Of a stretch of DNA of 64,000 bases, positions 6,601 through 52,089 are shown one piece after another. Position numbers and translations under genes: made by a program. The notes below the pieces were generated by a model. The model was not told the origin of the DNA. It ran no database searches and saw only the letters and a list, made by a program, of their open reading frames with translations. Position 1 is the first letter of the stretch. Each line of letters starts with the position of its first letter. The DNA is from Eledone cirrhosa (Eukaryota): NCBI GenBank assembly GCA_964016885.1, contig OZ024742.1, forward strand, positions 80,352,001-80,416,000, given 5' to 3'.

Positions 6601-7007
6601 AAAGAGTGGGATGTTCCAAGAAAATTCTCCAGTCGCCGGAAGAAATCAGGCCGCCCTGCTCCTGTCGGGGCATAGACGGCTACTATCCTGAAAGCTTGCA
6701 CGTCTCCGCTGGTCACGTTCAGCACCACCAACTTACCTTCTGGGTCGAGGAAGATGGCCCGTATGGCAAGATCTAAACCTCTCCGAAAGAGCACAACAAC
6801 TCTTCCCCCCGATCCAGGATGGCTGGGAGATGCGTACACATCATAGCCACCGAAGATCGGTGCGAAGGCCCGTGCTTCGGAGATTCTGGTCTCGCTGATG
6901 GCCACCACATCTATGTTTAGTGACCCGAGGTAGTTGAGAAGGTGGCCCTGCTTCCATGACGACCCCAGGCCAAGCGCATTTGTGCTGCCTATTCTGAATG
7001 AAGTCAT
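3639..7007 (-). pseudogene. Tx1 ORF2 (APE endonuclease + reverse transcriptase), disrupted
   Basis: ORF fragments 6489-7007 (ISET, VYAP, GDWN), 6195-6449 (TDH, YWKLN), 5061-5444 (LDQSKAFDRVDH), 4802-4990 (SAYADD), 3653-4609 (GGLGMP, CARC). Confidence 0.9.
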
Positions 7008-7042
7008 ATTGAAAAGGAGTGGAAAAAGATGGGAAAGACCAC

Positions 7043-9538
7043 TTACCTCACATCTCGTAGAGGGAGGAAGGTTTATCCATCCTTCGCACTGAATGTGTGC
7101 TCCTCCGAAAGGATGTCCTTATAAATCCTCCTGGAGAGTATTTGTCAGAAATCTCCGATGTCCTTGGGGAACTTTTGTTTTAGTGTCGTGTACGTTTTCT
7201 GTGTGATGCGAGTAATTTGTGTATGGAGGTGGTGTGAACTTTTGGGGTGTTGTGTAGTCTATTTCTGTGATGCTGGTGTTGTGTTGGATATAGTGTAATA
7301 ATTGGTTGTTGTTAAAATTTAATTGTTTCTTTTTTAGGCACAAGGCCAGCAATTACGCAGTACTTTACTGGTACTTTATTTTATCGACCCCGTAAGGATG
7401 AAAGGCAAAGTTAACCTCGGCGGGATTTGAACTGAGATCATAAAAGGACATAACTCTATACTTCAAAGCATGGTGTCCGACTCTTGTTGTTGTTAAAATT
7501 TAATGCTGTGTAGTGTGTATCGTTTTGGTTATATTGTTCTGTGTGCGTTTTCTGTGGGTTTGTTTCTGTTCCGCTTTTTGGTTATTTTTGTTGTGTTGGT
7601 GATGGTGGTTGTGTGGTTAATGATGGTGATGATGTTGGTGTTTGTGGTGATGGGGCTGGTGATGCTCGTATGGGTGGTGGCATAGCTGTCTTAGCTTTTG
7701 GGGGTTTGTTTGCTCATTTGTTTCCCCCTGCATTTTATTTATGGAGGACAAAGGAAGAGGATTTTTTTTTTTTTGGGGGGGGGGTCTTTCTTTCTTTTTC
7801 TTTTTTCGTGATGCCATTTCCCACTCATCCTCATCGTCACAATCTGTCTCCAGTTGGGATAGGTCGGGCAGTGGAAAAGCCTCCACAGGCGTTGGTTTTG
7901 GTTTGTGGCGTGGTGGACGGTGGAGGCGCTGGTGCTAATTCTGGCGTGGTGGGTGGTAGTGTTGGTTTTGCTACTGTTGCTGGGCTTGTTGGTGCTATAG
8001 TTGCTTCTGTTGTTGCTGCTACAGTTGTTGCTGCTATTTTTGCTGCTGGTGGTTTTAATGGTTGAGTCACTGGGGTGGGTAGGAGAGGTGGCCTCAACTT
8101 TTTAGCCTGAGGGCAGAAATTCCTTTAGGTGGGTTCCATCGCCACAAAAGACACACCTAGGCCTTCTACCCTCGACGATTACCGTGAGGTGGCTGCCATC
8201 ATTGAGGTCTATCACCTCTGGAATTTCCTCAATGTTTTTTTGGTCCGCTTAGATCAGGATCTCCATCCCATATCCGGACCAGTTCTCCTGTTTTTCTTGA
8301 GGTACCTCAATTATTTTCGTGTTGGCCTCGATCCTGGGGAGGACGACAGCCATTAGACAGGGAATTTCGATGGCCGGCGAAACGTGGATCACCCTGATCT
8401 TCACAAATCTCTGACCACAATAGCTTGGGATGAGTGTGAATTTGTCACTTCTTAATGAGGCTATGGAGTGTTATCTTGCCTCTGTGATGTTTCAAAGAGC
8501 ACGTCCACGGTTCCATATTTCTGCCCTCGTCTATGTGGGTTTTTTTGCCCACACATGTCCCAAAGCTTTTTTGATTTGGGACTCGGATGCCCGTTCCACT
8601 CGGCGCGATTTTATGTTAATTGTCCGATAAGACACGGTGCATAGGCGCCGATGCTCCATGTTCATTAGGTGGGGAGGGGCTGACCCTGTCCCATCTTTCT
8701 TTACCATTCCTTTGGCTTCTTCTAATTTCTCCTGAGTTACCTGGATCGCTTAGCACGTTTTTGCTACTCTGGCAAAACTCAAGGTAGTTTTCTTAATTTC
8801 ATTGTTGCTGTTGTTGTTATCGTTATTTTTGTTATTATTAATTTTAGTTTCAGTTGTGGTTGTGGTGGTGTCAGTGGTGTTCGGTGTGGAAGAGTTCATT
8901 TTGGTTGAATTCTTTTCGATATCATGAGTTAATTTTTTTCTTTTGTTTCTCTCGTTTCCTTTGGTGTTCCAAAGAACATGTCCACGGTTCCATATGTCTG
9001 ATGTGGGTTTTTTGGCTCACACATGTCCCAAAGCTTTTTGCCCGTTCCACTCAGCGTGATTTTGTGTTTATCGTCTCATATCACACGCTGCATAGGCGTC
9101 AATGCTCCATTTCATTATAAGGGGGGATTGGCTGACCCTATACCCATCTTTTGTTACCTTTCTCTTGGCTTGATTTAATTCATTCTGGCTTACCTCGATT
9201 GTTTCGCTTTTCTTGGCTGCTTTGACAAACGACACATTTTTTTGCGCTGGTGTTGATATTCTTGTTGTTGCTGTTATTGTTATTTTTGTTATTGTTATTT
9301 TTAGTTTCAGTTGGGATTCTTTTTGACATTGTTGTAGTGGGGTGGTGGTTTTAACACCTGCAGTTATTGGTAATGGCGGGAAATCCATGTCTTTATGCGG
9401 CAAAACTAAATAATTGAGACTGCTATTAATTATATTTTCAGTGTTGGTAACAGTGGCAATGCTTACAATGGTGTTGGTGAGGGAGGGGAATGTTGGTCTG
9501 TTAAAAACAGGAGATTTGTCGTCCATGTTTTTTTTCAA
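7043..9538 (-). pseudogene. Tx1 ORF1 (gag-like) of copy A, frameshifted and partly duplicated
   Basis: CVFCGDGTH..EFC knuckle near 8110-8160; T/P-rich tracts; KNVSFV..ELNQAKRKV segment homologous to copy D ORF1. Confidence 0.7.
7324..7485 (-). mobile_element. tRNA-derived SINE, 5'-truncated, 19-bp TSD
   Basis: Matches the SINE body; GTTGTTGTTAAAATTTAAT at 7305-7323 and 7486-7504. Confidence 0.9.
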
Positions 9539-12914: not shown

Positions 12915-15900
12915 GATTTCTTTATTAACCACAAGGGTTTACATAAAGTAGACATTAAGGACAGTGCAGGACAATGCAGGACGGTACAAATGGGCATTTC
13001 TGCGTGTAAAAAACAAAAAAACAGAGGATGTAACAAAAAATAACAATGAAAAATTCCCCAATAGGGGGGAGACTTCGGAGGGACATTTGTGGAGAAAGCC
13101 CAGTAAAAGGCCACAATGACACTGACCACCAAGGCAAGTGCCCTCTCCCAGTTTTCCACCTTTAATTTACAGATATATACTCAGAGTAGGCCCATTCACT
13201 CGGGCCATTCTTGCTTCTCTCACCCATCTTTCAACAAAATGCTGGGAAGCGAGCACTTCCCTCTCTACTCTGATTTTCCTTTTCAAATGAAATTTGAAAA
13301 AGTCAATCAGAGCATCACCGAAGAGGTAAGTGTTGGTCTTCAGCCCTTTCAAACGTGTCCACCATACTATCTCTTTCGCCATGGCCACCAGACAGATAAA
13401 AACTGCCTGCCGTTCCCGGCTAAAGGAAGAGGGCGGGGCAATCCTCACGATGGACTCAGATGATAGACGGATCCGTCCTAAACGCGACAGCAGGTGTTCC
13501 ACATAAACCCACAAGTCCGCAATTTTCGGACACTGGACGAGTGCGTGCAGGACGGTTTCGTCGCCCTGCGCGCATCTTGGACATGCCCGGCGGAGGGCAC
13601 CTCCATGCCTGTAGAGTGTATCCCAAACTGGCAAGGCTCCTCGGTTTTTGTCCGTCTGGAGGTCCGGACCGAACCAGACCCCTAGCAATTTAACCGGTCC
13701 GTCCGTCCAGCGCCCGACGACGCTGTTGGACGGCATGGACCTGCCTCTCCAGGTGCCGAGCTGCAGGCCCACTGACTTTTCCTGGTTGATCATTGCTCCT
13801 GTCACCGCTTCGTATTCTCTTAGTGTAGTGCCGATCGCCTCGATGTGTTTGGCGTTCGACACCACTACGGTGACATCGTCCGCATATGCTGACACGGATC
13901 TTCCGCATCCTAGTTCGCGCGGGACGCCCCTCAACGTCTACAGTTTGTGCAGTAATGGCTCGAGAGTCAATATGTACAAGAGGGACGAGAGGGGACATAC
14001 TTGACGGACCGAGCGCACGATGTGGAACGGTTCCGACAGGTGACCGTTCACTCTCACCACAGAGCAGATGTCGCTGTGCATGGCAGCGATCCAGCCTCTG
14101 AAGACGGGCCCAAAGCCCCCCGCCCTCAGGACTGCCGCTAGGTAACGATGGTCGACCCTATCGAAAGATTTCGACTGATAAAAATTGATCAATGACCCAT
14201 CCGTGCCAGGTTCCCTAGCTACCTTCTCTACGATGTATCGCATGAGGTGGAGGTTGTCGTGGATGGATCTGTCGGGAATGGCGCATGTCTGCGCCTCTTC
14301 CACCAGACCACCAACGACAAGCGCCATCTTTGCTAGCACCTTGGCTAAAGTCTTGAACTCTGTGTTTAGCATGGTTATGGGCCGGAAATTATCTATGTTA
14401 TCCCCCTTGTTCGGATCCTTTCTCAGCAGTACCACCGCTCCTCGGCTCACAGAACTGGGAATTGTCCCGTTCTGTTGCCAGTTGCAGTAGACGTCCGCCA
14501 AGAGGCCTCCGAACAAGTCTGGCGGCTGTACGTAAAGTTCATAGGGCAGACCATCCAAACCAGGCGATTTACCCTTGTGCAGCCAGTCATTGCCTCCCTT
14601 ACTTCAGCGGCTGTTATCGGCTTTTCGCAACACTTCGCCTCAGTGGCCGAGAGCCGCGGCAGTCCGTCGAGGTAGACACTAAAGTCCATCCCTCGAACCG
14701 GCCCACCGCTACCCCCGAACAACTGAGCGAAGTGTCGCTGAAAAGATTCACACATTTGCCCGGGATTGAGTAGCATGCGCCCGTCGTGGTCCACCAAAGA
14801 ACGGATCGCGCCTCCGCCACTCGGGCCCATTGAACTGCTTTCGTCCCCTCGTGTCTGAGAGCACGCACTCTTGCTCTGACAACGCAACCTTCGTGCTTTG
14901 CATTGAAGAATTGGTCAAGAGCCAATTCCGCCGCAAGCACGTCGGTCGCAATGCCTTTGCTAAACGCCTCGTCTAATTTTCTAAATAGTTCTCCCTCTGC
15001 TCTATTTTTCTCTATTGCTAAAGCCTTACTAAACCTAATGGATTCTATACTAATCGCTCTTTTCAGAGCAAACCACCACTTGTTGTTGACGATGGCCCCC
15101 GTCAACGCCCGCTTAACTAGTTCGCTAATCCGGTCTCTGTAGGCCTTGCGCGCTGGTAAGGACGCGTTTAACTTCCAGTAGCCGGGTCCTCGTCTATGAA
15201 GCCTATCTAAGTCAAGCACACAGATCCCGAATTTGTGGTCCGTGTAGCTGACTATCTTAAATTGTGGACAGCCTATGCTAGACCTATCTATTTCCCTACA
15301 AAATACTCTATCTAGATATGATCTGGATGACCCTATGCGATTTGTCCAAGTCCACCTTGGCACATTGGGGAAATCCAATCGGTAGCTGTCAGACAGTTAA
15401 AAACGCCTGAGCAGGTTGGTGAGGATCTTGCACCCTCCACCCCTATCCGCTAATCCCACACAGTCCCAGCGTGCATCTAAGATCCCGTTCCAGTCGCCCA
15501 CTAACACTAAAGAGCGGGACCTTCCCAGAAAGATCTCCAGACGCCGGAAGTAATCAGGCCGCCCTGCTCCTGTCGGGGCATAGACGGCCACTAGCCTGAA
15601 AGCTTGCCCGTCTCCGCTGATAACGTCCAGCACCACCAGCTTACCCTCTGGGTCCAGGAAGATGGCCCGTATGGCGAGATCCAAACCTCTCCGAAAAAGC
15701 ACAGCAACTCCACCCCCCGATCCAGGACGGCTGGGAGATGCGTACACATCGTAGCCGCCGAAGATCGGTGCGAAGGCCCGTGCTTCGAAGATTCTGGTCT
15801 CGCTGATGGCCACTACATCTATGTTTAGTGACCTGAGGTCGTTGAGGAGGTGACCCTGCTTCCATGACGACCCCAAGCCACGCGCATTTATGCTGCCTAT

Positions 15901-17110
15901 CATGAGTGAGGTCATGTTTAAAATAGAGTGGAAAAGATGGGAAAGACCACTTACCGTACTTTTCGTAGAGGAGGGATGGTTTTTACATCCCTTTTCACTT
16001 GATCGTCTGGTGAAGGGACCGTTGAATCGTCCCTTCGGCTGGTCATCGGCTCTTCCATGAGTATGTCCGAATATACTCTTCGAGTGATAGTTCCTCCTAG
16101 GTCCCTGAAATCACCAACTGCGTTGGGGAATTTCGTGTTAATGTTTGTGTATTGTTTCTGTGCTATTTTTAGCAGTCTTATGTTAGTTGGCGTTTTGATT
16201 GGTGCTGGTTTTATGTAGTCGTGTTGTGAAATATCTGTGTGTTCAATTATGTAAGTCATTAGTTTCTTGTTGTGTGTATTTATTGCCTTGAATTTGTTTT
16301 TCTGGGGGTGGGGTGTGGTTCTGCTATTTTCTTGTCGTTGTTGCTCGGTGTGTGTGTTTTGTTGTTGTGTTTGCGATGTTGGTGCTTGTGGTGGTGGTGT
16401 TGAAGGTGTTGTTTGCGGTGGGGTTGTCGCCGGTGGTGATGGTGGTGCTAGTGTGGGTGGTGATGGTGTTGGTGGGGTTTGCTGCTGTGAGTCTCTTTGC
16501 AGTAGACTTTACCCTTTTTTCATTTCTTTCCTCCCTTTTCAAAGGCGACGATGCGCTGCTTCTGCGTTTGTGCCTTCTTACGAACTTTTGCCATCCCTCT
16601 CCCACCTCACACTCCATGTCTGATTCTGTGAGGTGGGGAGGGGTACCAGCTCCACTCTTTCACTTGTTGTTGTTGGTGATGTTTCGTCGTCGTTGTCGTC
16701 GTCGTGGAGAAATCTTGCACGCTTTGCACGAAACTTTTCTTTTCTGTCGTCGCTTGCGAAAGAGAAGGGAGGGAGAGAGACACATTTAAAGAAGGAAGGG
16801 AGAGAGACAATCTTCTCTCTGCTGTAGTGACGATTGAGGAAAAAGAAGACGGAATGAGTGGGAGTGACCTATGAAAATTCTTTTTCGTAGCCATGTTGTT
16901 TTTTTTGTTTAAAATAAATATTGGGCACAAAACCCCAATAAGCAGTTATTTAACCCCGAAGGGCCAAATAACGGGCAGAAAGACCCCTCTCACGAGGAGA
17001 AGGGTTTTTTTGTCTACAAGTTGGTTAAAGTTTTCAACAATTTACAATTGTTATAACTGTCAAAATTTACAATACCTTACAGAGCCGAGCCTCCGTCAAC
17101 CATAGCATTC
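12915..17110 (-). mobile_element. Tx1-clade LINE copy B, both termini present, two large internal deletions
   Basis: Colinear with copy D except deletions at ~13643 and ~16682; (AAT)n on both flanks. Confidence 0.92.
13167..15915 (-). pseudogene. Tx1 ORF2 of copy B, disrupted
   Basis: SINARG/ISET/GDWN/TDH endonuclease motifs, FRPITMLN, SAYADD, CPRC..HALVQC. Confidence 0.9.
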
Positions 17111-21600: not shown

Positions 21601-23042
21601 AAATCGTTAGGCCTCGTCATGAAGCGGTTTTAGATATTGCAGCTGTGGGCTCGTTTGGTTTGCGCTGAGGAATGCCGAAATGGTACCCGTCTTCTCCGTA
21701 TGCAAAAAGAAGGGGATACTGCAGGGCGTCGTATGAACGATGCGTCTCATTAATACGTCGAAGACCACTGTCACGATTTTGAAGACTATGACTCTCTTAT
21801 TGTGCTGTTCACCATGGATAACTACGGCCACTTCATTGCACGAAGGAGCGTTATAACGGCGTGCGTGCTCCCCAGAAGGTCTTTTGTCAGCATCGATGAC
21901 AATGGTGAGTTTGGTGAAGGATTTGTTTCCAATGCGTATTTGAAACTTCGAATATAACTGTTGTGCTCCTGAAGCATGTTTTGATGACCGAACAGCACGT
22001 CCCTTTCAAAGGCGTCAGCGTCAGTGTTTGCAGGTGTTGGAATAATGCCGAACCGCGCATCAACTGGCCTACTGTGGTTAGAAATGAAGTAAATTTGAAG
22101 GGACGAAGTCTTGCAATTGTGTAGTGGCTGGAGCGACCCAATAAGATGTTACACCTGCCCCTGGACCTTGAAAGTAGGCATCCAACCACTTTCTCTGACA
22201 ACGTTAGCCCCTAAAGTAGTCATTTGGAACGCACAATTGTACTTCCTGATGAGGTGAAGGAATTTGGATGACCTTGAGGTAGAACCAGTAAGTAGTTCCT
22301 TCAAAGGCTCTGGTGGTTCTCGAAGAGGCGGCAAGCTGACCTTACCGTTTAAGCAGCACATTGCAGGTGGCTCCCCAGCCCACTTTTTAGCATTGCAGAA
22401 TTTGCAATTGAAGCGCATTTCCCCTATATTTATGTCGGCACGCATCGAGTAGTTAACGTTGAGTTCATACTTGAAAGCCCGTATGTGCCAGTATTGGCTG
22501 TTGGGGCTCGTCACACCGCGGGCAGCTTCTTGTTGTCGACTGTTCCGCTCCAACGTAGAATGTTGCTCCTGTGGGTCGTGGGAAGGTCTCGCAGCAGTAG
22601 CAGAAGCCACCTTTGCAATCCTAATGGAGCGCCCGTCTGCATCTTCGGAAGCCATGGAAGCAGTCATAGCCGCAGCGTTCCTAGCAAGGCGATTCGTCAG
22701 CCGTTCCAAACCTTCCAAAGCCCTGGAAGCAGCAGTAGCCGCAGCGTTTCTAGTTAGTCGAACCGCCCTTTGATCCTGGCCCTCTGCTTTTTTTTTGGAA
22801 TGTCGTATCGCCCGCTCTGAATCGCACATTGCAGCACGTCTCGCGGCGTCATATGAAGCCATCTTGGCTAGGCGTGCGGTGCATTGTTGAAAACTTTCAG
22901 CAGCTCTGCATTCCGCTGAACGTAAGGCGCTCTGTGAAAGTCTTAAAGCAGTTTCCTCGGGGGACTCGTTTGCTCTAATCGCCCTCTGCGCCGCCGCTGA
23001 CGGGGTTTGGCGACCGAGGCGACTTCTCTTTTTATGTGGCAT
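18684..23042 (-). pseudogene. Helitron RepHel transposase (HUH Rep + Pif1-like helicase), frameshifted
   Basis: CKFCNAKKW..CCLNGKV, VEWQKRELPHTHIL (HUH), [58 protein letters not shown]. Confidence 0.92.
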
Positions 23043-23620
23043 TTTATGTGAAAAAGAAAGGGTGAGGTTACTTCTACAGCAAAATTGCCTTTGAAAGTAA
23101 AAGGCCGAAAACTGTCGGCGTTCCGCAGGGAAATAAATGGGAGAACGAACGGCAAATAAATAACTCACGGATTGTTGAAAGCGCGCTTCTGTCAGCAATT
23201 CGAAGTTGTTTGGCCAAAAGCCCCTATGTGTTTTTTTTTTCACTCAATAAACGTGTAAATATGTTATACACAAAATGTAATTGTGTGTGAGTTGGTGATA
23301 GATGTTTTAAAAAGAGATTTTAAGCGTATATAAGAGAAGGTTGCATCATGTATTTTTTTTTTCGATTTTTAAGTCGAGTAGAGAGAGGATTTCACATAGT
23401 ATTAGAGGGGTAAAACGTCATGTATTTAGTTTTATCGATTATTTCCGTAATTGTGGGTGATTTTGAAATAAATAAATAGTCTTTGACCTATGTTAGACCA
23501 TTTAGAACATTCTTACAGACATCGAGTCGAATTGGTTAGAAATTGTACAAATGTATAAACATGGAACATGCACATACACACACACACAACAACAACAACA
23601 ATCTGCCTTTTATAGATAAT

Positions 23621-35796: not shown

Positions 35797-37743
35797 GCTT
35801 TTATTATTTACTACAAGGGTTTACATAAAGTAGACATTAAGGACAGTGCATGACAATACAGGACGGTAGAAATGGGCATTTCTGCGTGTAAAAAAAACAA
35901 GAAACAGATCATGTAATAATAGAACAATGAAAAAATTTTCCAATAGGAGGGAGACTTCTGAGGGACATTCGTGGAGAAAGCCCATTAAAAAGGCACAGTT
36001 ACCCTGACCACCAGGGCAAGTGCCCTCTCCCAGTTTTCCACCTTTAATTTACAGACACATACTCAGAGTAGGCCCATTAACTCGGGCCATTCTTGCCTCT
36101 CTCACCCATCTTTCAACAAAATGCTGGGAAGAGAGCACTTCCCTTTCTACCCTGATTTTCCTTTTTAAATGAAATTTGAAAAAGTTAATCAGGGCATCAC
36201 CAAAGAGGAAAGTGCTCGTCTTCAGCCCTTTCAAACGCGTCCACCTTATTATCTCTTTCACCATGGCCACCAGACAGATAAAAACTTCCTGCCCTTCCCG
36301 GCTAAATGTAGAGGGCGAGACACTCCTCACGATGTACTCAGCTTATAGCCCGATCCGTCCTACACGCGTTCCACATAAACCCACAAGTCAGCATAGTCGG
36401 ACACTGGACGAGTGTGTGCAGGTCGGTTTCGTCTCCTTGCGCGAATCTCGGACATGCCCGACTGACGGCACTTGCATGCCTCTAGAGTTTATCTCGAACT
36501 GGCGAAGCTCCTCGGTAGCACTGCCAGACCAGGGATTTCTGGAAGTTGTCCATAGGCCTCAGCCCGAGAGTTCTTCCGAAGAGATTGGCTAGTTGATTTT
36601 CGTCGACGCCTAGAGTTTCCGCAAGTACGCCGTCGCTCTTCCCCTCCAGTAATCGTCTATAGAACGCCAATGTGGAGTTTCCATCGATCACATTGCACGA
36701 TTGGTCGAGGGCTGTGAGCGCCTGAAGACATTCCAGTCTCAATGCGCTCCCTCTCGGTCTTTGCTTGACCCAGGACTGCTTCTCCGTCAAGGAGACGACC
36801 TGGAAAGACGCGTCTAGCAAACGGCGACCCCACCTGATCACCGTCGAGGAAGAGGTGGAGATGTCGTAGCCTGAGCGCGTGTCTGCGCATCATCAGCCAC
36901 GGCATGCCCAGCCTTCCACGTAGCGCGTATTGATAGCAGATGGACCGCCAGACCATCGAAGCGCGTTCCTTCCACACAAAGCGAAAGAGCAAACGCCCCA
37001 GCGCAGTCAAACGAGGCTTAGAAGAAGGCACGACGGTCAGGCTGTAGTAGATGACGCGTTAGCCACCCCCGCTCGACTTTTCAGGGATAGCTTCCTCTCC
37101 GCACATTTCGTCCCAGTTTTCGTCCGTCTGGAGGTCCGGACCGAACCAGACCCCTAGCAATTTAACTGGTCCGTCCGTCCAGCGCCCGACGATGTTGTTG
37201 GACGATATGACCCTGCCTCTCCAGGTGCCGAGCTGCAGGCCCACTGACTTTTCCTGGTTGATCATTCCTCCTCTCACCGCTTCGTATTCTCTTAGTGTAG
37301 TGCCGATCGCCTCGATGTGTTTGGTATTCGACACCTCTACGGTGACATCGTCCGCATATGCTGAAATGGATCTTCCGCATCCTAGTTCGCGCGGGACCCC
37401 ATCAATGTCTCCAGTTTGTTCAGTAATGCCTCGAGAGTCAATACGTACAAGAGGGACGAGAGGCGACATCCTTGACGGACCGAGCGCATGATGTTGAACG
37501 GTTCCGAAAGGTGACCGTTCACTCTCACCACAGAGCAGCTGTCGCTGGGCATGGCAGCGATCCAGCCTCTGAAGACGGGCCCAAAGCCAGCCGCCCTCAG
37601 GGCTGCCGCCAGATAACGATGATCGACCCTATCGAAAGCTTTCGATTGATCTAAATTGATCAAGGACCCACCCGTGCCAGTTTCCCTAGCTACCCTCTCC
37701 ACGATGTATCGCATGAGGTGGAGGTTGTCTTGGATGGATCTGT
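35797..37743 (-). mobile_element. Tx1-clade LINE copy C, 5'-truncated within RT
   Basis: LDQSKAFDRVDH, VRQGC, SAYADD, shared 3' UTR ending at (AAT)n. Confidence 0.9.
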
Positions 37744-38445: not shown

Positions 38446-38877
38446 TTTTTATAAGATATACTAATTCTATATAGTTATCTCCAAATTATTTGTTGAGCAA
38501 GAATTTGCCGAAATTACTGCTATGGTTCATGGTAGTAGTCAAGCTCCTGTCTTATTAGCACCCCACTCCTCACTGATTAACCTCAGTGTCACGTGATTGA
38601 TTCTTTTGAATTTGCCACTGACCAAGTAGGCAGTGCATTTTTTCAATGTGCTGGAATTTAGTCCCCGCTCGCTTTTTTCCATCCACTGAATTATTTTTGT
38701 ATAAGTTCCCTGTGTCCACGCATTGCCTAGGAACTTAGCTGAGAATAGACTCCCTGATGACGTAAGGATTATCTATGGTTACGTTCGGTAACCATATTTA
38801 TTCTCTTACAGAAACTAATTAGTTGGAGTGACATTTTAGTAAGTAAGTTGATTTTCATAATTTTCTTATTTTACGTC

Positions 38878-38880
<3 letters not shown>
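38445..38880 (+). mobile_element. Diverged partial copy of the 533-nt hammerhead-bearing repeat
   Basis: Colinear with ~49820-50250; ends TTACGTCTTT at (TA)n. Confidence 0.8.
38749..38829 (+). ncRNA. Type I hammerhead ribozyme, predicted GUU cleavage after 38824
   Basis: ACTCC CTGATGA c-GTAAGG..TATGGTTAC gttcg GTAACCATA..TCTTAC-a GAAA CTAATTAG TT GGAGT. Confidence 0.8.
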
Positions 38881-38960
<80 letters not shown>

Positions 38961-38963
<3 letters not shown>

Positions 38964-43059: not shown

Positions 43060-46000
43060 TTACAGATATATACTCAGAGTAGGCTCATTCACTCGGGCCA
43101 TTCTTGCTTCGCTCACCCATCTTTCAACAAAATGCTGGGAAGAGAGCACTTCCCTCTCTACTCTGATTTTCCTTTTCAAATGAAATTTGAAAAAGTCAAT
43201 CAGGGCATCACCGAAGAGGTAAGTGCTCGTCTTCAGCCCTTTCAAACGTGTCCACCATACTATCTCTTTCGCCATGGCCACCAGACAGATAAAAACTGGC
43301 TGCCCTTCCCGGCTAAAGGAGGAGGGCGGGGCAATCCTCACGATGGACTCAGATGATAGCCGGATCCGTCCTACACGCGAAAGCAGGTGTTCGACATAAA
43401 CCCATAAGTCAGCAATTTTCGAACACTGGACGAGTGCCTGCAGGACGGTTTCATCGCCCTGCGCGCATCTCGGACATGCCCGGCTGACGGCACCTATATG
43501 CCTGTAGAAATTATCTCGAACTAGCAAGGCTCCTCGGTAGCACTGCCAGGCCAGAGATTTCTGTAAGTTGTCCATAGGCCCCGGCCCGAAAGTTCTTCCG
43601 AAGAGATTGGCTCGTTGATTTTCGTCGACGCCTAGGGTTTCCCCAAGTACGTAGTCGCTCTTCCCCTCCACTAATCCTCTATAGAACGCTGAGGTGGAGT
43701 TTCCACCGATGACGTTGCCCGATTGGTCGAGGGCTGTGAGCGCCTGAAGACATTCCAGTCTCCAGGCGCTCCCTCTCGGTCTTCGCTTGACCCAGGACTG
43801 CAGCTCCGTCAAGTAAACGATCTGGGGAAATACGAGTCTAGCAAACGGTGACCACACCTGATCACCGTCGAGGAAGAGGTGGAGATGTCGTAGCCCGAGC
43901 GCGTGCATGCGCATCATCAGCCACGGCATGCCCAGCCCTCCACGTAGCGAGTGTTGACAACAGATGACCGCCTGACCATCGGAGCGCTTCCCTTCCACAA
44001 AAAGCGAAAGAGTAAACGCTCCAGCGCAGTCAGGCGAGGCTTAGGACAAGGTACGACGGTCAGGCGGTAGCAGATGACAGACGCGATGTACGCATTAGCC
44101 ACCTCCGCTAGACCTTTCAGGGATAGCTTCCTCTCCACCCATTTCTGGGTGAGAGAAGCCACCCTGCTCGTCACCTCGTCCCAGTTTTTGTCAGTCTGGA
44201 GGTCCGGACCGAACCAGACCCCTAGCAATTTAACCGGTCCGTCCGTCCAGCGTCCGACGGCATGGACCTGCCACTCCAGGTGCCGAGCTGCAGGCCCACT
44301 GACTTTTCCTGGTTGATCATTGCTCCTGTCACCGCTTCGTATTCTCTTAGTGTAGTGCCGATCGCCTCGATGTGTTTGGCGTTCGACATCACTACGGTGA
44401 TATCGTCCGCATATGCTGACACGGATCTTCCGCATCCTATTTCGCGCGGGACGCCCCTCAAAGTCTGCAGTTTGTGCAGTAATGGCTCGAGAGTCAATAC
44501 GTACAAGAGGGACGAGAGGGGACATCCTTGGCGGACCCAGCGCATGATGTTGAACGGTTCCGAAAGGTGACCGTTTACTCTCACCACAGAGCAGATGTCG
44601 CTGTGCATGGCAGCGATCCAGCCTCTGAAGACGGGCCCAAAGCCCCCCGCCCCCAGGACTGCCGCTAGGTAACGATGGTCGACCCTATCGAAAGATTTCG
44701 ACTGATCTAAATTGATCAAGGACCCACCCGTGCCAGTTTCCCTAGCTTCCCTCTCTACGATGTATCGCATGTGGTGGAGGTTGTCGTGGATGGATCTGTC
44801 GGGAATGGATCATGTCTGCGCCTCTCCCACCAGACCACCAACGACAAGCGCCAACCTCTTTGCTAGCACCTTGGCCAAAATCTTGAACTCTGTGTTTAGC
44901 AGAGTTATGGGCCTGAAATTATCTATGTTATCCCCCTTGTTCGGATCCTTTCTCAGCAGTGCCACCGCTCCTCGCTCACAGAACTGGGAATTCTCCCGTT
45001 CTGTTGCCAGTTGCAGGAGACGTCCGCCAAGAGGCCTCCGAACAAGTCTAGCATCTGTACGTAAAGTTCATAGGGCAGACCATCCAAACCAGGCGATTTA
45101 CCCCTTGTGCAGCCAATCATTGCCACCCGTACTTCAGCGGCTGTTATCGGCTTTTCGCAACACTCCGCCTCAGTGGTCGAGAGCCGCGGCAGTCTGTCGA
45201 GATAGACACTAAAGTCCATCCCTCGACCCGGCCCACCGCTGCCCCCGAACCGCTGAGTGAAGTGTCGCTGAAAAGCTTCACACATTTGCCCGGGATTGAG
45301 TAGCATGCGCCCGTCGTGGTCCGACAAAGACCGGATCGTGGCTTTGTTGCCACGACGCGCCTCCGCCAATCGGGCCTATTGAACGGCTATCGTCCCTTCG
45401 TGTCTGAGAGCACGCACCCTAGCTCTGACAACGCAGCCTTCGTGCTTTGCATTGAAGAATTGGTCAAGGGCCAATTTCGCCGCAAGCACGTCGGTCGCAA
45501 TGCCTTTGCTAAGCGCCTCGTCTAATTTTCTAGCTAGTTCTCCCTCTGCTCTATTTTTCGCTATTGCTAAAGCCTTACTAAACCTAATGGATTCTATTCT
45601 AATCGCTCTTTTCAGGGCAAACCACCACTTGTTGTTGACGATGGCCCCCGTCAACGCCCGCTTAACTAGTTCGCTAATCCGGTCTATGTAGGCCTTGCGC
45701 GCTGGTAAGGACGCGTTTAGCTTTCAGTAGCCGGGTCCTCGTCTATGAAGCCTATCTAAGTCAAGCACACAGATCACGAATTTGTGGTCCGTGTAGCTGA
45801 CTATCTTAAATTGTGGACAGCCTATGCTAGACCTATCTATTTCCCTACAAAATACTCTATCTAGATATGATCTGGATGAACCTATGCGATTTGTCCAAGT
45901 TCACATTGGCACATTCTGGAAATCCAATCGGTACCTGTCAGAGAGTTAAAAACGCCTAAGCAGGTTGGTGAGGCTCTTGCACCCTCCACCCCTATCCGCT

Positions 46001-48844: not shown

Positions 48845-49000
48845 TGTTTCCACTTTTAGCACAAGGCTAGCAATTAACCAGTTCATTACTGGTCCTTTAT
48901 TTTATCGACACGGTAAGGATGAAAGGCAAAGTAAACCTCGACGGGATTTGAACTCAGACCGTAAAGGGACGTAACTATGCTGGAAAGCATGGCGTCCGAC
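48845..49000 (-). mobile_element. tRNA-derived SINE directly upstream of Tx1 copy D
   Basis: SINE body match, 5'-truncated. Confidence 0.9.
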
Positions 49001-49001
49001 T

Positions 49002-49045
<44 letters not shown>

Positions 49046-49093
49046 CGTAAAATAAGAAAATTTTAAAAAATTAACTTACTTACTAAAATTTTC

Positions 49094-49174
49094 ACTCCAA
49101 CTAATTAGTTTCTGCAATGGGATAAAGACAGTTACGTAATAAACTGTCAAGAATTCATTGCGTCATCAGGGAGT
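49094..49174 (-). ncRNA. Type I hammerhead ribozyme
   Basis: Reverse complement of the 50117-50197 motif. Confidence 0.8.
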
Positions 49175-50116
49175 CTATTCTCAGCTAAGTCTCCAGGCAA
49201 TGCGCGGACACTGGGGACTCATATAAAAATAATAATAATTCGGTAAATGGAACAGCTAGCTGGGACTGGATTCCATGTACTGAAAAGCTCGCTGTCACTG
49301 GTCAAATGGCAGATTCTAAAGAATCAATCACGTGACACTGAGGCTAGTCGGTAGGAGTGGGATGGTAAGATGACAGAAGCCTACTAACACACCAATAAAT
49401 TAGTAGTGGTTTTGGCAGGTTTGCTCGACAAATAAGTAATTTGGAGATAAATATAGAGAATTTAGTATATCTAATAACATATGCGTACAGATGTACGCTA
49501 ATGCCAGCAAATACACAGGTTATGTCAAAGTACCTAGGTGGTTCAATGCAGGAGGATGCTGAACAATAATATAAAAGACGTAAAATAATAAAATTTTAAA
49601 AAATTAACTTACTTACTAAAATTTTCACTCCAACTAATTAGTTTCTGCAATGGGATAAAGGAGTGAACATTTTAGTAAGTAAGTTAATTTTTTTTAATTT
49701 TCTTATTTTACGTCTTTTATATTATTGTTCTGCATCCTCCTGCATTGAACCACCTAGGTACTTTGACATAACCTGTGTATTTGCTGGCATTAGCGTACAT
49801 CTGTACGCATATGTTAGTAGATATACTAAATTCTCTATATTTATCTCCAAATTACTTATTTGTCGAGCAAACCTGCCAAAAACACTACTAATTTATTGGT
49901 GTGTTAGTAGGCTTCTGTCATCTTACCATCCCACCCCTACCGACTAGCCTCAGTCTCACGTGATTGATTCTTTAGAATCTGCCATTTGACCAGTCACAGC
50001 GAGCTTTTCAGTACATGGAATCCAGTCCCCGCTACCTGTTCCATTTACCGAATTATTATTATTTTTATATGAGTCCCCAGTGTCCGCGCATTGCCTGGAG
50101 ACTTAGCTGAAAATAG

Positions 50117-50197
50117 ACTCCCTGATGACGCAATGAATTCTCGACAGTTTATTACGTAACTGTCTTTATCCCATTGCAGAAACTAATTAGTTGGAGT
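50117..50197 (+). ncRNA. Type I hammerhead ribozyme, predicted GUU cleavage after 50192
   Basis: ACTCC CTGATGA c-GCAATG..GACAGTT..AACTGTC..CATTGC-a GAAA CTAATTAG TT GGAGT. Confidence 0.82.
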
Positions 50198-50515
50198 GAA
50201 AATTTTAGTAAGTAAGTTAATTTTTTAAAATTTTCTTATTTTACGTCTTTTATATTATTGTTCTGCATCCTCCTGCATTGAACCACCTAGGCACTTTGAC
50301 ATAACCTGTGTATTTGCTGGCATTAGCGTACATCTGTACGCATATGTTAGTAGATATACTAAATTCACTCTCTCTATATATATATAGTAATAATAATAAA
50401 TGTGAAGCCTAAAATCCAAAGAGGGCTCGATAATGGTAAATATATATCAAATATATTTAACATTAAGGGTGAAAGCAGCGATTCTTTGCTTAATCATTAA
50501 TCTATTATTTTTATA

Positions 50516-50612
<97 letters not shown>

Positions 50613-50617
50613 CAGTG

Positions 50618-50669
<52 letters not shown>

Positions 50670-50795
50670 TTAGTACTTAGCAACGGAATTGCCAGCCAAC
50701 CAACACATCGTATATGGTCTAGCATAGTGTTGGTAAACAATAGTCGTTTTTAGCTTAGATACCATCTAGGTGCTGTAGTGTGTGTGTCTGAATGC

Positions 50796-50843
<48 letters not shown>

Positions 50844-52089
50844 ATGTGTGTGTGTGTATATATATGTGTGTGTGTGTATGTGTGCATGTGTGTGTATGTG
50901 TGTGTCTGCGTGTGTGTATACGAGATATATCTGAAACAAAAACAGGACAGTGGTTGCAATCAAAATATTTCAAACCCAAACTGCCTGTGTGCCTTTGTGT
51001 GTGTACCTGGGTCTGCGAGCATATGTGTTGATGACACACTCTGACATCGAAAATTTAATAGTTATCTTTGGAAATTGATGTGTTGACTGACACATATAAA
51101 TAGATATTGAGAAATCCTTACCAAGAACACCTCTTTATTTTCTCACTCCACTTTTGTCCATTAATTCATTGTTGCACAAAGTTGTTCAGACACTTGCGTT
51201 TTATTATTGTGATACGTATCATTTTCAAGGCAAATTTATATTGAAATACAAACATATAATTTAATTAGAAACAATCTCTATTAGACGAATGTAATACAAT
51301 CCTTTCAACTACTTATCTGTACGCAAATATTAGTGCCATCTGAATATAATTAACCTTAAGATTCCATCTCAAACAGGAAGTAGAATATTGCTGAAGAATC
51401 TAATTTTTATAATATGTATACGTGTATTCATTTTATCATGAGTATTTATGACATGGCTATTTATTATAGATCGCATTATGAAGATTTCAATTTTCATCAA
51501 TGTATATACTAATATATCTTTTGAAATAACTCTCTGTTTTGAAGGAATAATTGTAAACACCTTGAATAATGTTGTTCAATTTATAATCAATTTGAACACA
51601 TAAGTATAGATACATGCAGATACCTATATAATCCTGTTCAAATAAAAAATACACATACACATCTGTTCCCATACATGGACGTATGCATATAAAAAATATT
51701 CAATTAAGTATGGGTAAAATAGAAAAAAAAAGAGAGAAAACTTAAAAATAATGCCACTTACATTTTCAACCGATTAAATCTAACTGGATTCCCCAGTGTC
51801 ACAATCTTTTGTAACAGCTTAAAGAAAAACATCACCGAATAACTCAGCGGGGTATAACATTGATATTTAAAGGGCGGAACAAATTCAGTCTAACACACTT
51901 AATCCAACACACTTAATCAGATAGAAATAGAAACCTGACATTTTGAAGAAAACATACGAGGGAAGTCCGATAAGTAAATATAAGTAACCACATCTGTACA
52001 GTAGACTAAATGTTAGTAGATAAACAACGGTGTTTCTAAGACTCAAATACAGACTTTTTTGCATCACATAACTACAATAGCGCTTACAA

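What the first reader, a model, noticed from the sequence alone, without database searches (positions are those of the whole stretch)
49039..50365. 533-nt hammerhead-delimited retrozyme-like unit whose insertion begins exactly at the predicted cleavage site
Seen: the plus arm starts at 49660 with GGAGTG, the sequence immediately 3' of the predicted GUU cut. It runs one 533-nt monomer to the next hammerhead (cut after 50192) and ~170 nt further. The minus arm is also slightly longer than one monomer, and there is no credible ORF. Established: Penelope-like elements and non-LTR retrozymes carry type I hammerheads with palindromic stem III (here ACTAATTAGT) that can act as dimers and yield monomeric or circular RNAs. 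Inference: this is a young non-autonomous ribozyme-processed retroelement, and the junction records in vivo self-cleavage.
Basis: partly seen in the sequence, partly recalled or inferred. Interest (0 to 1): 0.75.

Follow-up and report, generated by a model that had tools for sequence, protein, structure and literature searches.

The report
Two-armed hammerhead retrozyme insertion, Penelope-type
This is one mirror-image insertion of a 533-base protein-less repeat with a predicted self-cutting RNA motif, a known kind of element (animal retrozyme) present thousands of times in this genome; the ends of its copies suggest it was likely copied from cut RNA by Penelope-type jumping-gene enzymes.

Summary
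Window 49036-50366 is a head-to-head pair of partial tandem copies of a 533-nt unit set in (TA)n. The plus arm starts at 49660 with GGAGTG, the base after the predicted hammerhead (HHR) cut.

The motif (CUGAUGA, 50-nt helix II, GAAA, palindromic ACUAAUUAGU, GUU|G) occurs 9073 times in this genome. Its stems covary across subfamilies. Rfam hammerhead models do not score it.

In 129 arms from 90 loci, 121 3' ends fall at two fixed sites (about q57-63 and q174-185), and 117 of those abut (TA)n. 5' ends vary. Of 49 two-armed insertions, 42 carry one end of each kind and 1 carries two of the same kind.

5' ends at the predicted cut are about 7-8 times commoner than at two control sites (33/1471 against 8/2536). 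They are still only a few percent.

This is the insertion signature described for Penelope-like elements (PLEs), so I read it as a non-autonomous animal non-LTR retrozyme: a new member of a known kind.

- No autonomous partner was found.
- No RNA data were available.
- Cleavage and circles remain untested.

Earlier notes of this scan read other retrozyme families (310-615 nt) in this same genome, on other DNA, the same way.

The parts
49006..49040 (.). (AT)17 microsatellite flanking the outer (3') end of the minus arm. The target is the A/T-rich tail of a SINE-like repeat.
   Evidence: TRF 49006-49040, period 2, 17.5 copies.
49036..49660 (-). Minus arm: q505-533, one full 533-nt unit, then q1 to about q60, ending at the short (S) 3' terminus ACGTCTTTTATAT that merges into (AT)n.
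49093..49175 (-). Complete predicted type I hammerhead of the minus arm. The predicted cut lies between 49099 and 49098 on the minus strand.
   Evidence: motif 49099-49169; stems read; covariation.
49632..49660 (-). Inner end of the minus arm: the last 28-29 nt before the cut site (3' part of helix II, GAAA, stem III). This is an incomplete hammerhead without the CUGAUGA box.
49660..49660 (.). Head-to-head junction. The G is shared by the two arms (1-nt overlap) and is the first base 3' of the predicted cut for the plus arm.
49660..50366 (+). Plus arm: one full unit (49660-50192) plus q1-174 (50193-50366), ending at the long (L) 3' terminus ...ACTAAATTC.
50117..50197 (+). Complete predicted type I hammerhead of the plus arm.
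- Stem I: ACTCC/GGAGT.
- CTGATGA at 50122-50128.
- Long helix II.
- GAAA, then the palindrome ACTAATTAGT.
- Predicted cut after 50192.
50308..50359 (+). Conserved 22-bp hairpin (q116-167), 7-9 nt upstream of the L terminus. It also occurs at 49775-49826 (+) and 49465-49516 (-).
   Evidence: 26 sequences, 22 pairs, 4 with compensatory changes.
50367..50386 (.). ACTCTCTC(TA)n flank at the outer end of the plus arm.
38454..38885 (+). Single-arm, 5'-truncated copy (q160-533 plus q1-63) of a sister subfamily. It has its own hammerhead (motif 38754-38824), ends at the S terminus and abuts (TA)n.

Best explanation
The locus is a head-to-head pair of partial tandem copies of a 533-nt protein-less repeat carrying a predicted type I hammerhead motif, set in a (TA)n microsatellite. 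It is likely one insertion of a non-autonomous retrozyme-type retroelement that a Penelope-like reverse transcriptase/GIY-YIG endonuclease would have written in from both sides of a DNA break.

Proposed course, with the basis of each step:
1. Arrays of the unit are transcribed (inferred).
2. Hammerheads of neighbouring units pair through the palindromic stem III and cut after GUU, giving 533-nt RNAs that start with GGAGUG and may be ligated into circles (inferred by analogy with other animal retrozymes).
3. A PLE protein supplied in trans nicks both strands of a (TA)n tract (inferred from the literature on PLEs).
4. Each free 3' end primes cDNA at one of two internal sites. The S site (q57-63, UAUAU) follows a fold-predicted hairpin. 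The L site (about q174, before UCUAUAU) follows a conserved hairpin. The two fixed ends, and one of each per insertion, are shown. Priming there is inferred.
5. The enzymes copy towards the RNA 5' end, often through more than one unit. They stop at variable points or run off at the cut 5' end. Variable 5' ends with a peak at the predicted cut are shown.
6. The two cDNAs are joined 5' end to 5' end with 0-3 extra or shared bases (the junctions are shown; the joining route is inferred).

In this window the L-type arm ran off at the cut site and the S-type arm stopped 28 nt beyond it.
For: Motif:
- All core hammerhead bases are present.
- There are 9073 exact genome matches, against 0 for the reversed pattern.
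- Across 48 distinct sequences of several subfamilies, 95.3% of cells in stems I and II pair, against 35-45% when partners are slid. 9 of 16 pairs show changes on both sides. 0 of 500 shuffles reach the observed score.
- Only 26 scattered variants have a short helix II.
- The dimer cofold forms the intermolecular palindrome helix: -53.8 kcal/mol against 2 x -22.1.
- The circular 533-nt fold is -128.4 kcal/mol, z = -6.6 against 100 shuffles.

Retrotransposition signature, from 129 distinct arms in 90 loci:
- 3' ends: 64 S, 57 L, 8 other.
- 117 of the 121 S or L ends abut (TA)4 or longer.
- 5' ends are scattered over the unit.
- Of 49 head-to-head pairs, 42 are S+L, 1 is L+L and 6 have an odd end; binomial p = 1e-11.

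Ends at the cut site:
- The 24-mer starting at q1 occurs 1471 times.
- 33 of these have non-native bases at -4 and -3.
- All 30 fetched have unrelated upstream sequence.
- The same test at q73 gives 6 non-native against 2142 native, and at q241 gives 2 against 386.
- Fisher odds ratio against both controls together is 7.3, p = 1.7e-8.
- Local profile under one filter: 8 start at q1, at most 2 at q2, at most 3 at q3.
- 29 of 41 arms starting at q1-3 contain no further unit, as expected for a monomeric cut RNA.
- 5 loci have both arms meeting at the cut site with 0-3 bases between.

Context:
- The genome holds many RT plus C-terminal GIY-YIG elements (10596 first-look GIY-YIG candidates; all 150 scored passed the cut-off; Pfam).
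- One family ends in (TA)n and has its own HHR-like motif.

Literature:
- PLE insertions show 5' truncation, partial tandems, an adjacent inverted truncated copy, a tail at one end only and a (TA)n preference (PMC8557442, passages).
- A purified PLE protein cuts and extends both strands and starts reverse transcription at two internal sites just downstream of its HHR (PMC11167929, main text).
- Animal retrozymes are proposed to be PLE derivatives (preprint 10.64898/2026.07.22.740005, abstract and first part of Results).
Against: - No Rfam hammerhead model matches, even at E up to 10.
- The motif has an unusual C after CUGAUGA and A before GAAA at the base of helix II. Its effect on catalysis is unknown.
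- Stem III shows no covariation: 38 single variants, none compensated. Dimer action therefore rests on analogy and a fold.
- No autonomous PLE sharing the unit's HHR or 3' ends was found in 24 PLE loci.
- Cut-site 5' ends are rare: 2.2% of q1 sites and 1 of 38 arms in the sample not chosen for them, where 10 more arms start at q5-38.
- For the one PLE studied in vitro, HHR mutants did not affect insertion, no RNA-seq reads ended at the cut site, and no strand difference in start site was seen (PMC11167929).
- No excess of A>G changes (33, against 63 T>C) that would mark an edited RNA intermediate.
Confidence: 0.78

Rival explanations
1. Same element and same Penelope-type insertion, but the 5' ends at q1 do not record ribozyme cleavage. 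The reverse transcriptase would stop at the base of the folded, uncut hammerhead junction, or the RNA would simply start there because transcription initiates at GGAGUG.
For: - 5' ends cluster more broadly in q1-q38: 13 of 38 arms in set B by BLAST coordinates, of which the check removes 2.
- The excess of q1 over q2 and q3 rests on small numbers: 8 against at most 2 and 3.
- For PAc, unprocessed RNA was the main substrate and no RNA ends were seen at the cut site (PMC11167929).
Against: - The peak falls on the bond predicted independently from the hammerhead core geometry.
- 29 of 41 such arms have no further unit, and both arms can end at the same base, as for run-off on a molecule that really ends there.
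- A start of transcription falling exactly on the scissile bond would be a coincidence.
Confidence: 0.18
2. The unit is only the pseudo-LTR or terminal part of an ordinary autonomous Penelope-like element, and the copies seen are truncated tails of it.
For: - PLE HHRs lie in pLTRs, and most dispersed HHRs were thought to be truncated PLEs (PMC4209133).
- Only 24 of over 10000 candidate PLE loci were inspected.
- L082 has a unit fragment 1.9 kb downstream of a PLE frame on the same strand.
Against: - Arms run through up to 3.3 whole units, with nothing but the unit between hammerheads.
- All six or so subfamilies have a 520-570-nt spacing.
- PLE coding sequence near the unit was on the opposite strand in 3 of the 4 cases and a separate truncated fragment in the fourth.
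- A roughly 200-kb array consists of the unit alone in every stretch I sampled.
Confidence: 0.05
3. This is a satellite DNA and a local inverted duplication made by DNA-level events (unequal exchange, fold-back replication), with no RNA intermediate.
For: - A roughly 200-kb tandem array of the family exists.
- The palindromic stem III could favour fold-back.
Against: - There are thousands of dispersed short copies with the same two outer ends in (TA)n and variable inner ends.
- Junctions are not centred on the palindrome.
- Stems covary, as for a functional RNA.
Confidence: 0.02

Closest known systems
Metazoan non-LTR retrozymes (Cervera and de la Pena 2020, PMC7229834, passages read; Li, Clavereau and Pollet 2026 preprint 10.64898/2026.07.22.740005, abstract and first part of Results read)
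   Same: - Non-coding tandem units, each with a type I hammerhead that has a weak palindromic helix III.
- No LTR, primer binding site or polypurine tract.
- GC below 50% (37.7%).
- Unit length inside the reported 51-972 bp range.
- Co-occurrence with PLEs.
- A stable, highly paired predicted circle.
   Different: - Helix II is about 50 nt instead of about 4 bp.
- There is a C/A apposition at its base.
- Circular RNA and expression are not shown here.
- The passages I read do not describe the two fixed 3' ends, one of each per insertion, or the excess of 5' ends at the cut.
Insertion architecture of Penelope-like elements, especially (TA)n-targeting clades such as Hydra, Naiad and Neptune (Craig et al. 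2021, PMC8557442, passages; Frangieh et al. 2024, PMC11167929, main text)
   Same: - 5' truncation and partial tandems.
- An inverted truncated copy at the 5' side.
- An extension present at only one end.
- Microsatellite (TA)n targets.
- An HHR just upstream of the cDNA start sites.
- Both DNA strands used as primers.
   Different: - There is no RT/EN frame.
- The 'tail' between the two start sites is about 115-125 nt, not 30-40.
- Both start sites lie at UAUAU-like stretches that could pair with the (TA)n primer, whereas PAc starts without homology.
- PAc showed no strand bias of start site, whereas here 42 of 43 classifiable pairs are mixed.
PLE hammerheads that act as dimers (Cervera and de la Pena 2014, PMC4209133, passages; Lunse et al. 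2017, seen only as a citation)
   Same: - A longer helix II and a short helix I (5 bp).
- An extra nucleotide between A9 and G10.1, with G10.1-C11.1 kept.
- A palindromic helix III.
   Different: - Helix II is far longer, with an internal loop and a covarying distal hairpin.
- There is an additional A between C11.1 and G12.
- Helix III is a full 10-nt palindrome.
Ribozyme-defined 5' ends of non-LTR retrotransposons: HDV-like ribozymes of R2 and L1Tc, twister in RTE (mentioned in PMC7761336, passage; details recalled)
   Same: A self-cleaving RNA would set the 5' end of the RNA that is reverse transcribed, so genomic copies begin at the cut.
   Different: - The ribozyme class differs.
- Here the ribozyme lies upstream of the cut in a repeated unit.
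- Only a few percent of copies begin there.
Plant LTR retrozymes (Cervera et al. 2016, PMC4918200; search listing and abstract only)
   Same: A non-autonomous element with hammerheads that yields unit-length RNA.
   Different: Plant elements have type III hammerheads in LTRs, a primer binding site and polypurine tract, and Ty3/Gypsy-type mobilisation. None of these is present here.

Membership tests
Hammerhead ribozyme, type I | Conserved core: C3 U4 G5 A6 N7 G8 A9, G12 A13 A14, A15.1-U16.1, and a cleavable H17. | tested here: met
   CUGAUGA ... GAAA-C...G-U-U|G in all three window copies and in the 61 distinct variants collected.
Hammerhead ribozyme, type I | Helices I and II flank the core, with helix I open. 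| tested here: met
   95.3% of cells paired, 9 of 16 pairs with compensatory change, 0 of 500 shuffles as high, slid controls 35-45%.
Hammerhead ribozyme, type I | Helix III is formed, in one molecule or as a dimer. | tested here: inconclusive
   The 10-nt palindrome pairs between two molecules in the cofold. No covariation: 38 single variants, none compensated.
Hammerhead ribozyme, type I | G10.1-C11.1 lies directly next to the core. | tested here: inconclusive
   G-C is present but flanked by an extra C (5') and an extra A (3') in 98 or more of the 100 listed copies. An extra 5' nucleotide is known in PLE hammerheads (PMC4209133). The 3' A was not described in the passages read.
Hammerhead ribozyme, type I | Match to curated covariance models (Rfam hammerhead families). 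| tested here: not met
   no hammerhead family at gathering score or at E up to 10. The long helix II and loop-less helix III probably prevent a match.
Hammerhead ribozyme, type I | Self-cleavage at the predicted bond. | not testable with these tools
   Only indirect evidence: 5' ends of genomic copies are enriched at that bond.
Animal non-LTR retrozyme | Non-coding tandem unit with one type I HHR per unit, and no LTR, PBS or PPT. | tested here: met
   The longest open frame is 101 aa and crosses the junction.
Animal non-LTR retrozyme | Many dispersed copies in the genome. | tested here: met
   2084 first-look candidates; 9073 HHRs of the superfamily.
Animal non-LTR retrozyme | Expressed as unit-length linear and circular RNA. 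| not testable with these tools
   No RNA run could be examined.
PLE-type (Penelope-like) insertion | Variable 5' truncation with fixed 3' ends, and partial tandems. | tested here: met
PLE-type (Penelope-like) insertion | An inverted truncated copy adjoining the 5' end. | tested here: met
   49 head-to-head pairs take in 98 of the 129 arms.
PLE-type (Penelope-like) insertion | An optional extension ('tail') at one end only, from two cDNA start sites. | tested here: met
   42 of 43 classifiable pairs have one S end and one L end. The extension is about 115-125 nt, not 30-40.
PLE-type (Penelope-like) insertion | Insertion bias for microsatellites. | tested here: met
   117 of 121 S or L ends abut (TA)4 or longer.
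Autonomous Penelope-like element | Encodes an RT with a GIY-YIG endonuclease. | tested here: not met
   No such frame in the unit or on its strand in the 60 loci chosen for the unit.

The most novel reading that the evidence does not exclude
The two-armed copies, with one short-type and one long-type outer end and with inner ends that pile up on the predicted scissile bond, are the genomic footprint of a Penelope-type enzyme dimer. The dimer copies one self-cleaved (or circular) retrozyme RNA at once from two hairpin-marked start sites. This would be sequence-level proof that animal hammerheads cut in vivo and set the template's 5' end, and it would name the long-sought machinery that moves animal retrozymes.
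Probability: 0.4. Interest if true: 0.7.

Novelty: new member of a known kind. Interest (0 to 1): 0.5.

Why it matters
[quoted passage not shown] They also say that animal retrozyme repeats show no motif that reveals which enzyme moves them.

The one biochemical study found no RNA ends at the cut site (PMC11167929).

This family, with thousands of copies, gives countable genomic read-outs that bear on both questions:
- two fixed cDNA start sites, with one of each per insertion;
- (TA)n targets;
- a 7-8-fold excess of copy starts at the predicted cut.

It also offers a clean substrate for bench tests.

The kind of element is known. Earlier notes of this scan read sister families of this genome the same way, so the gain is evidence and detail rather than a new category.

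Tried and rejected
- Rfam at gathering score on the whole window, and at E up to 10 on 48900-50500: no hammerhead family. The hits were chance miRNA/snoRNA-like matches to the inverted repeat.
- RNA evidence: no RNA holder was listed. The four runs are Logan contigs of unknown kind. Laying them gave short repeat contigs, with no ends or joints that can be interpreted.
- Autonomous partner: 12 top GIY-YIG loci and 12 long-frame PLE loci carry neither the unit nor its terminal motifs or hairpin loop. Exceptions are a unit fragment 1.9 kb downstream of the PLE frame in L082 and a separate unit copy in L085. PLE frames beside the unit in L029 and L032/L033 are tail-to-tail neighbours in the same (TA)n tract. 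A search for a short-helix-II version of the same hammerhead found only 26 scattered deletion variants.
- Covariation in the stem III palindrome: none.
- Shared variants between the inner and outer units of the two window arms, to tell a circle from a multimer: too few differences to decide. Units within one insertion are about 98-99.6% alike over full units, more than most copies at other loci. That fits one template but does not show a circle.
- Look-up of this unit among earlier findings by sequence: nothing.
It was repeated with 12 chosen frames.
Full report
**What is there**

Two arms lie head to head: 49036-49631 and 49660-50255, 596 nt, 98% complementary, with 28 nt between them. Each arm is a partial tandem of a 533-nt unit.

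I number the unit from q1, the G at 49660.
- Plus arm: q1-533 (49660-50192) followed by q1-174 (50193-50366).
- Minus arm, read on its own strand: q505-533, q1-533, then q1 to about q60.

The plus arm begins exactly with GGAGTG, and one G is shared with the inner end of the minus arm. The outer ends run into (AT)17 on the left and ACTCTCTC(TA)n on the right. No frame longer than 101 aa crosses the element.

**The ribozyme motif**

Each full unit holds, in order:
- ACUCC;
- CUGAUGA;
- C, then a roughly 50-nt helix II, then A;
- GAAA;
- the palindrome ACUAAUUAGU (helix III), whose first A ends that GAAA;
- a further U, then the predicted cut, then GGAGU.

All core positions of a hammerhead are present, and helix I is open (type I). 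The pattern matches three times in the window and never in 100 shuffles. It matches 9073 times in the 3.0-Gb genome, against 0 for the reversed pattern.

The genome copies fall into several subfamilies with a 520-570-nt spacing and different helix II sequences. On an alignment of 49 sequences (48 distinct):
- 95.3% of cells in helices I, II-proximal and II-distal pair, against 35-45% when partners are slid;
- 9 of 16 pairs have changes on both sides;
- no shuffle of 500 reaches the observed score.

One subfamily has a compensated insertion of a whole pair in helix I. Only 26 scattered copies have a shortened helix II.

Points against a plain membership:
- No Rfam hammerhead model scores the motif, even at E up to 10.
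- A conserved C and A flank helix II. PLE hammerheads are described with an extra nucleotide on the 5' side only (PMC4209133, passages).
- The palindrome shows no covariation (38 single variants).

Action as a dimer therefore rests on the literature analogy and on a cofold of -53.8 against 2 x -22.1 kcal/mol. The unit folded as a circle gives -128.4 kcal/mol, z = -6.6.

**How the copies are built**

The unit has 2084 first-look candidates in its genome, of which 40 were scored, with copies up to 98% identical. I analysed 90 fetched loci in three sets:
- set A, 30 loci chosen by similarity to the unit;
- set B, the first 30 loci with an intact motif on contig 1;
- set C, 30 loci chosen for a non-native sequence before q1.

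Duplicates and arms within 40 nt of a locus end were dropped. That left 129 distinct arms.

Their 3' ends fall at two sites: S (ACGTCUUUUAUAU, q57-63) in 64 arms, L (ACUAAAUUC, about q174; BLAST extends it to about 185) in 57, and elsewhere in 8. Of the 121 S or L ends, 117 abut (TA)4 or longer. The 5' ends are spread over the unit.

Forty-nine insertions are two-armed, with both outer ends being 3' ends. Of these, 42 have one S and one L end, 1 has two L ends, and 6 have an odd end (binomial p = 1e-11). The window's copy is of the common kind, S on the left and L on the right.

A 22-bp hairpin lies 7-9 nt before the L end and is conserved in 26 sequences of several subfamilies, with compensatory changes in 4 pairs. 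The fold also predicts a hairpin (q15-48) before the S end.

Between the window's two subfamilies, q1-63 is 90% identical while the rest of the unit is 74%.

**Copy starts at the predicted cut**

In set A, 8 of 43 arms start at q1 by BLAST. Six are exact. Two carry 3-4 native bases before it.

In set B only one of 38 arms starts there (with TT before it). Two apparent cases are alignment artefacts. Ten more arms start at q5-38. Such starts are therefore a minority.

Genome-wide counts:
- The 24-mer from q1 occurs 1471 times.
- 33 of these have non-native bases at both -4 and -3.
- All 30 that were fetched have unrelated upstream sequence.
- At q73 the same design gives 6 non-native against 2142 native.
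- At q241 it gives 2 against 386.
- The odds ratio against the pooled controls is 7.3, p = 1.7e-8. Against q241 alone it is 4.4, p = 0.02.

With one common filter, 8 copies start at q1, at most 2 at q2 and at most 3 at q3.

Of 41 arms in set C that start at q1-3, 29 contain no further unit. They run only from q1 to the S or L end.

In roughly a dozen of the 30 loci the partner arm also starts at or within a few bases of q1. That gives a palindrome centred on the cut with 0-3 bases between. Five such junctions with perfect 14-mers on both sides exist genome-wide.

This is what run-off of two cDNAs on an RNA that truly begins at G1 would leave. It does not exclude arrest of the enzyme at an uncut, folded hammerhead. 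A start of transcription on that very bond would be a coincidence.

**What it is**

These features are the ones described for Penelope-like elements.
- Craig et al. 2021 (PMC8557442, passages) describe strong 5' truncation, partial tandems, an adjacent inverted truncated copy, an extension at one end only, a (TA)n preference in several clades, and HHRs in the terminal repeats.
- Frangieh et al. 2024 (PMC11167929, whole main text) show that a purified PLE protein cuts and extends both strands. It starts cDNA at two internal sites about 85-120 nt downstream of its HHR cut.

The genome is rich in such elements:
- There are 10596 first-look GIY-YIG candidates, and all 150 scored are above the cut-off.
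- One 636-aa family has an HHR-like motif in its 3' UTR and ends in (TA)n.

The unit itself is not part of any PLE body that I inspected. I therefore file it as a non-autonomous animal non-LTR retrozyme (Cervera and de la Pena 2020, PMC7229834, passages). Such elements are proposed to derive from and depend on PLEs (PMC7761336, passages; Li et al. 2026 preprint).

The partner is not identified. Only 24 of thousands of PLE loci were looked at.

**Differences from what I read**
- Helix II is very long. Craig et al. mention eight PLE cases with core halves 35-50 nt apart.
- About 115-125 nt separate the two start sites, rather than 30-40.
- Both start sites lie at UAUAU-like stretches that could pair with a (TA)n primer, whereas PAc starts without homology.
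- S and L ends are almost obligatorily paired in one insertion, whereas PAc showed no strand difference in vitro.
- There is a measurable excess of copy starts at the cut, whereas for PAc no RNA reads ended there.

None of the passages I read reports copy starts at the hammerhead cut or the one-of-each rule. I read passages rather than whole papers, except the main text of PMC11167929. Supplements were not opened, so this is not a claim of absence from print.

**Earlier notes of this scan**

Searches returned earlier notes, which are AI notes and not independent evidence. They describe other retrozyme families of 310, 422, 430, 467 and 615 nt in the same genome, read in the same way. They report two-armed copies, two fixed ends, (TA)n targets and hairpins at the ends. 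One reports RNA-editing scars.

I had counted the S/L rule before seeing them. I tested the editing idea on this family and found no A>G excess. I tested the hairpin idea for the L site.

**Age and template**

The two full units in the window differ at 14 of 533 positions. Full units within one insertion elsewhere are 97.6-99.6% alike, and arms of a pair mostly 97-99.6%. Copies of the same subfamily at other loci are about 94-98% identical to the window unit.

This fits one template per insertion followed by decay. It does not separate a circle from a homogeneous multimer.

**A giant array**

The second control search revealed a tandem array of this family on contig 28.
- Probes every 20 kb across it, plus both boundaries, were read.
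- It begins with a roughly 206-nt minus arm ending at an S terminus.
- It turns head to head into a plus arm that starts at q162.
- It runs as the unit alone in every probe and ends at an L terminus about 199.6 kb further on. That is roughly 370 units of about 541 nt.
- Units across it are 97.7% alike (median of 347 pairs).

The array therefore has the same outer signature as the small insertions. I cannot say whether its size comes from copying or from later unequal exchange. It is a candidate source of multimeric transcripts.

**Verdict**

The locus is best explained as a Penelope-type two-armed insertion. It is a new member of a known kind, of moderate interest for the countable evidence it gives on how such elements are copied.

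Noticed in passing
G000 contig 28, about 8782640-8982194 (loci L136-L146, L159): A roughly 199.6-kb tandem array (about 370 units of about 541 nt) of this family. Units are 97.7% alike across it.

It keeps the canonical layout: a short minus arm with an S end, a head-to-head junction, and a giant plus arm ending at an L terminus. It could be a source locus or an extreme copying product.
   Followed up: partly
window 38454-38885 (+), (TA)n at 38886-38961: A single-arm, 5'-truncated copy of a sister subfamily (74% identity in the body, 90% in q1-63). It has a compensated helix II and lies directly after a LINE fragment.
   Followed up: partly
window about 48870-49000: A tRNA-like SINE copy whose A/T-rich tail (TAATAAT...) hosts the insertion. 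The same tail sequence resumes right of the element (50387-50403), so a short target duplication is possible but cannot be told in low-complexity DNA. This SINE has by far the highest depth in the laid runs.
   Followed up: no
window 3653-4648, 6489-7118, 13167-16110, 37059-37628, 43060-44040 (all -): Fragments of LINE-type retrotransposons (Exo_endo_phos, RVT_1, zf-RVT). The window is largely repeat DNA.
   Followed up: no
window 22149-23243 (-): A 364-aa open frame with a Pfam STPRs match (E = 3e-14). It may be an exon or a gene fragment.
   Followed up: no
L083:7568-8599 (+): Another hammerhead-like motif (CTGATGA-T-AGCT...AGCT-T-GAAAC...), three times at 483-511-nt spacing, about 3 kb downstream of a PLE frame. 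This is probably a further retrozyme family.
   Followed up: no
L076, L077, L080 (3' flanks of 514-636-aa RT/GIY-YIG frames): A PLE family with a roughly 530-nt 3' UTR that holds a CUGAAGA...GAAA hammerhead-like motif and ends in ...ATTAATATA(TA)n. It is a (TA)n-targeting candidate class of mobiliser, without sequence similarity to the 533-nt unit.
   Followed up: partly
window 50512-50666 and 50778-50917: Long (TA)76 and (GT)70 microsatellites just right of the element.
   Followed up: no
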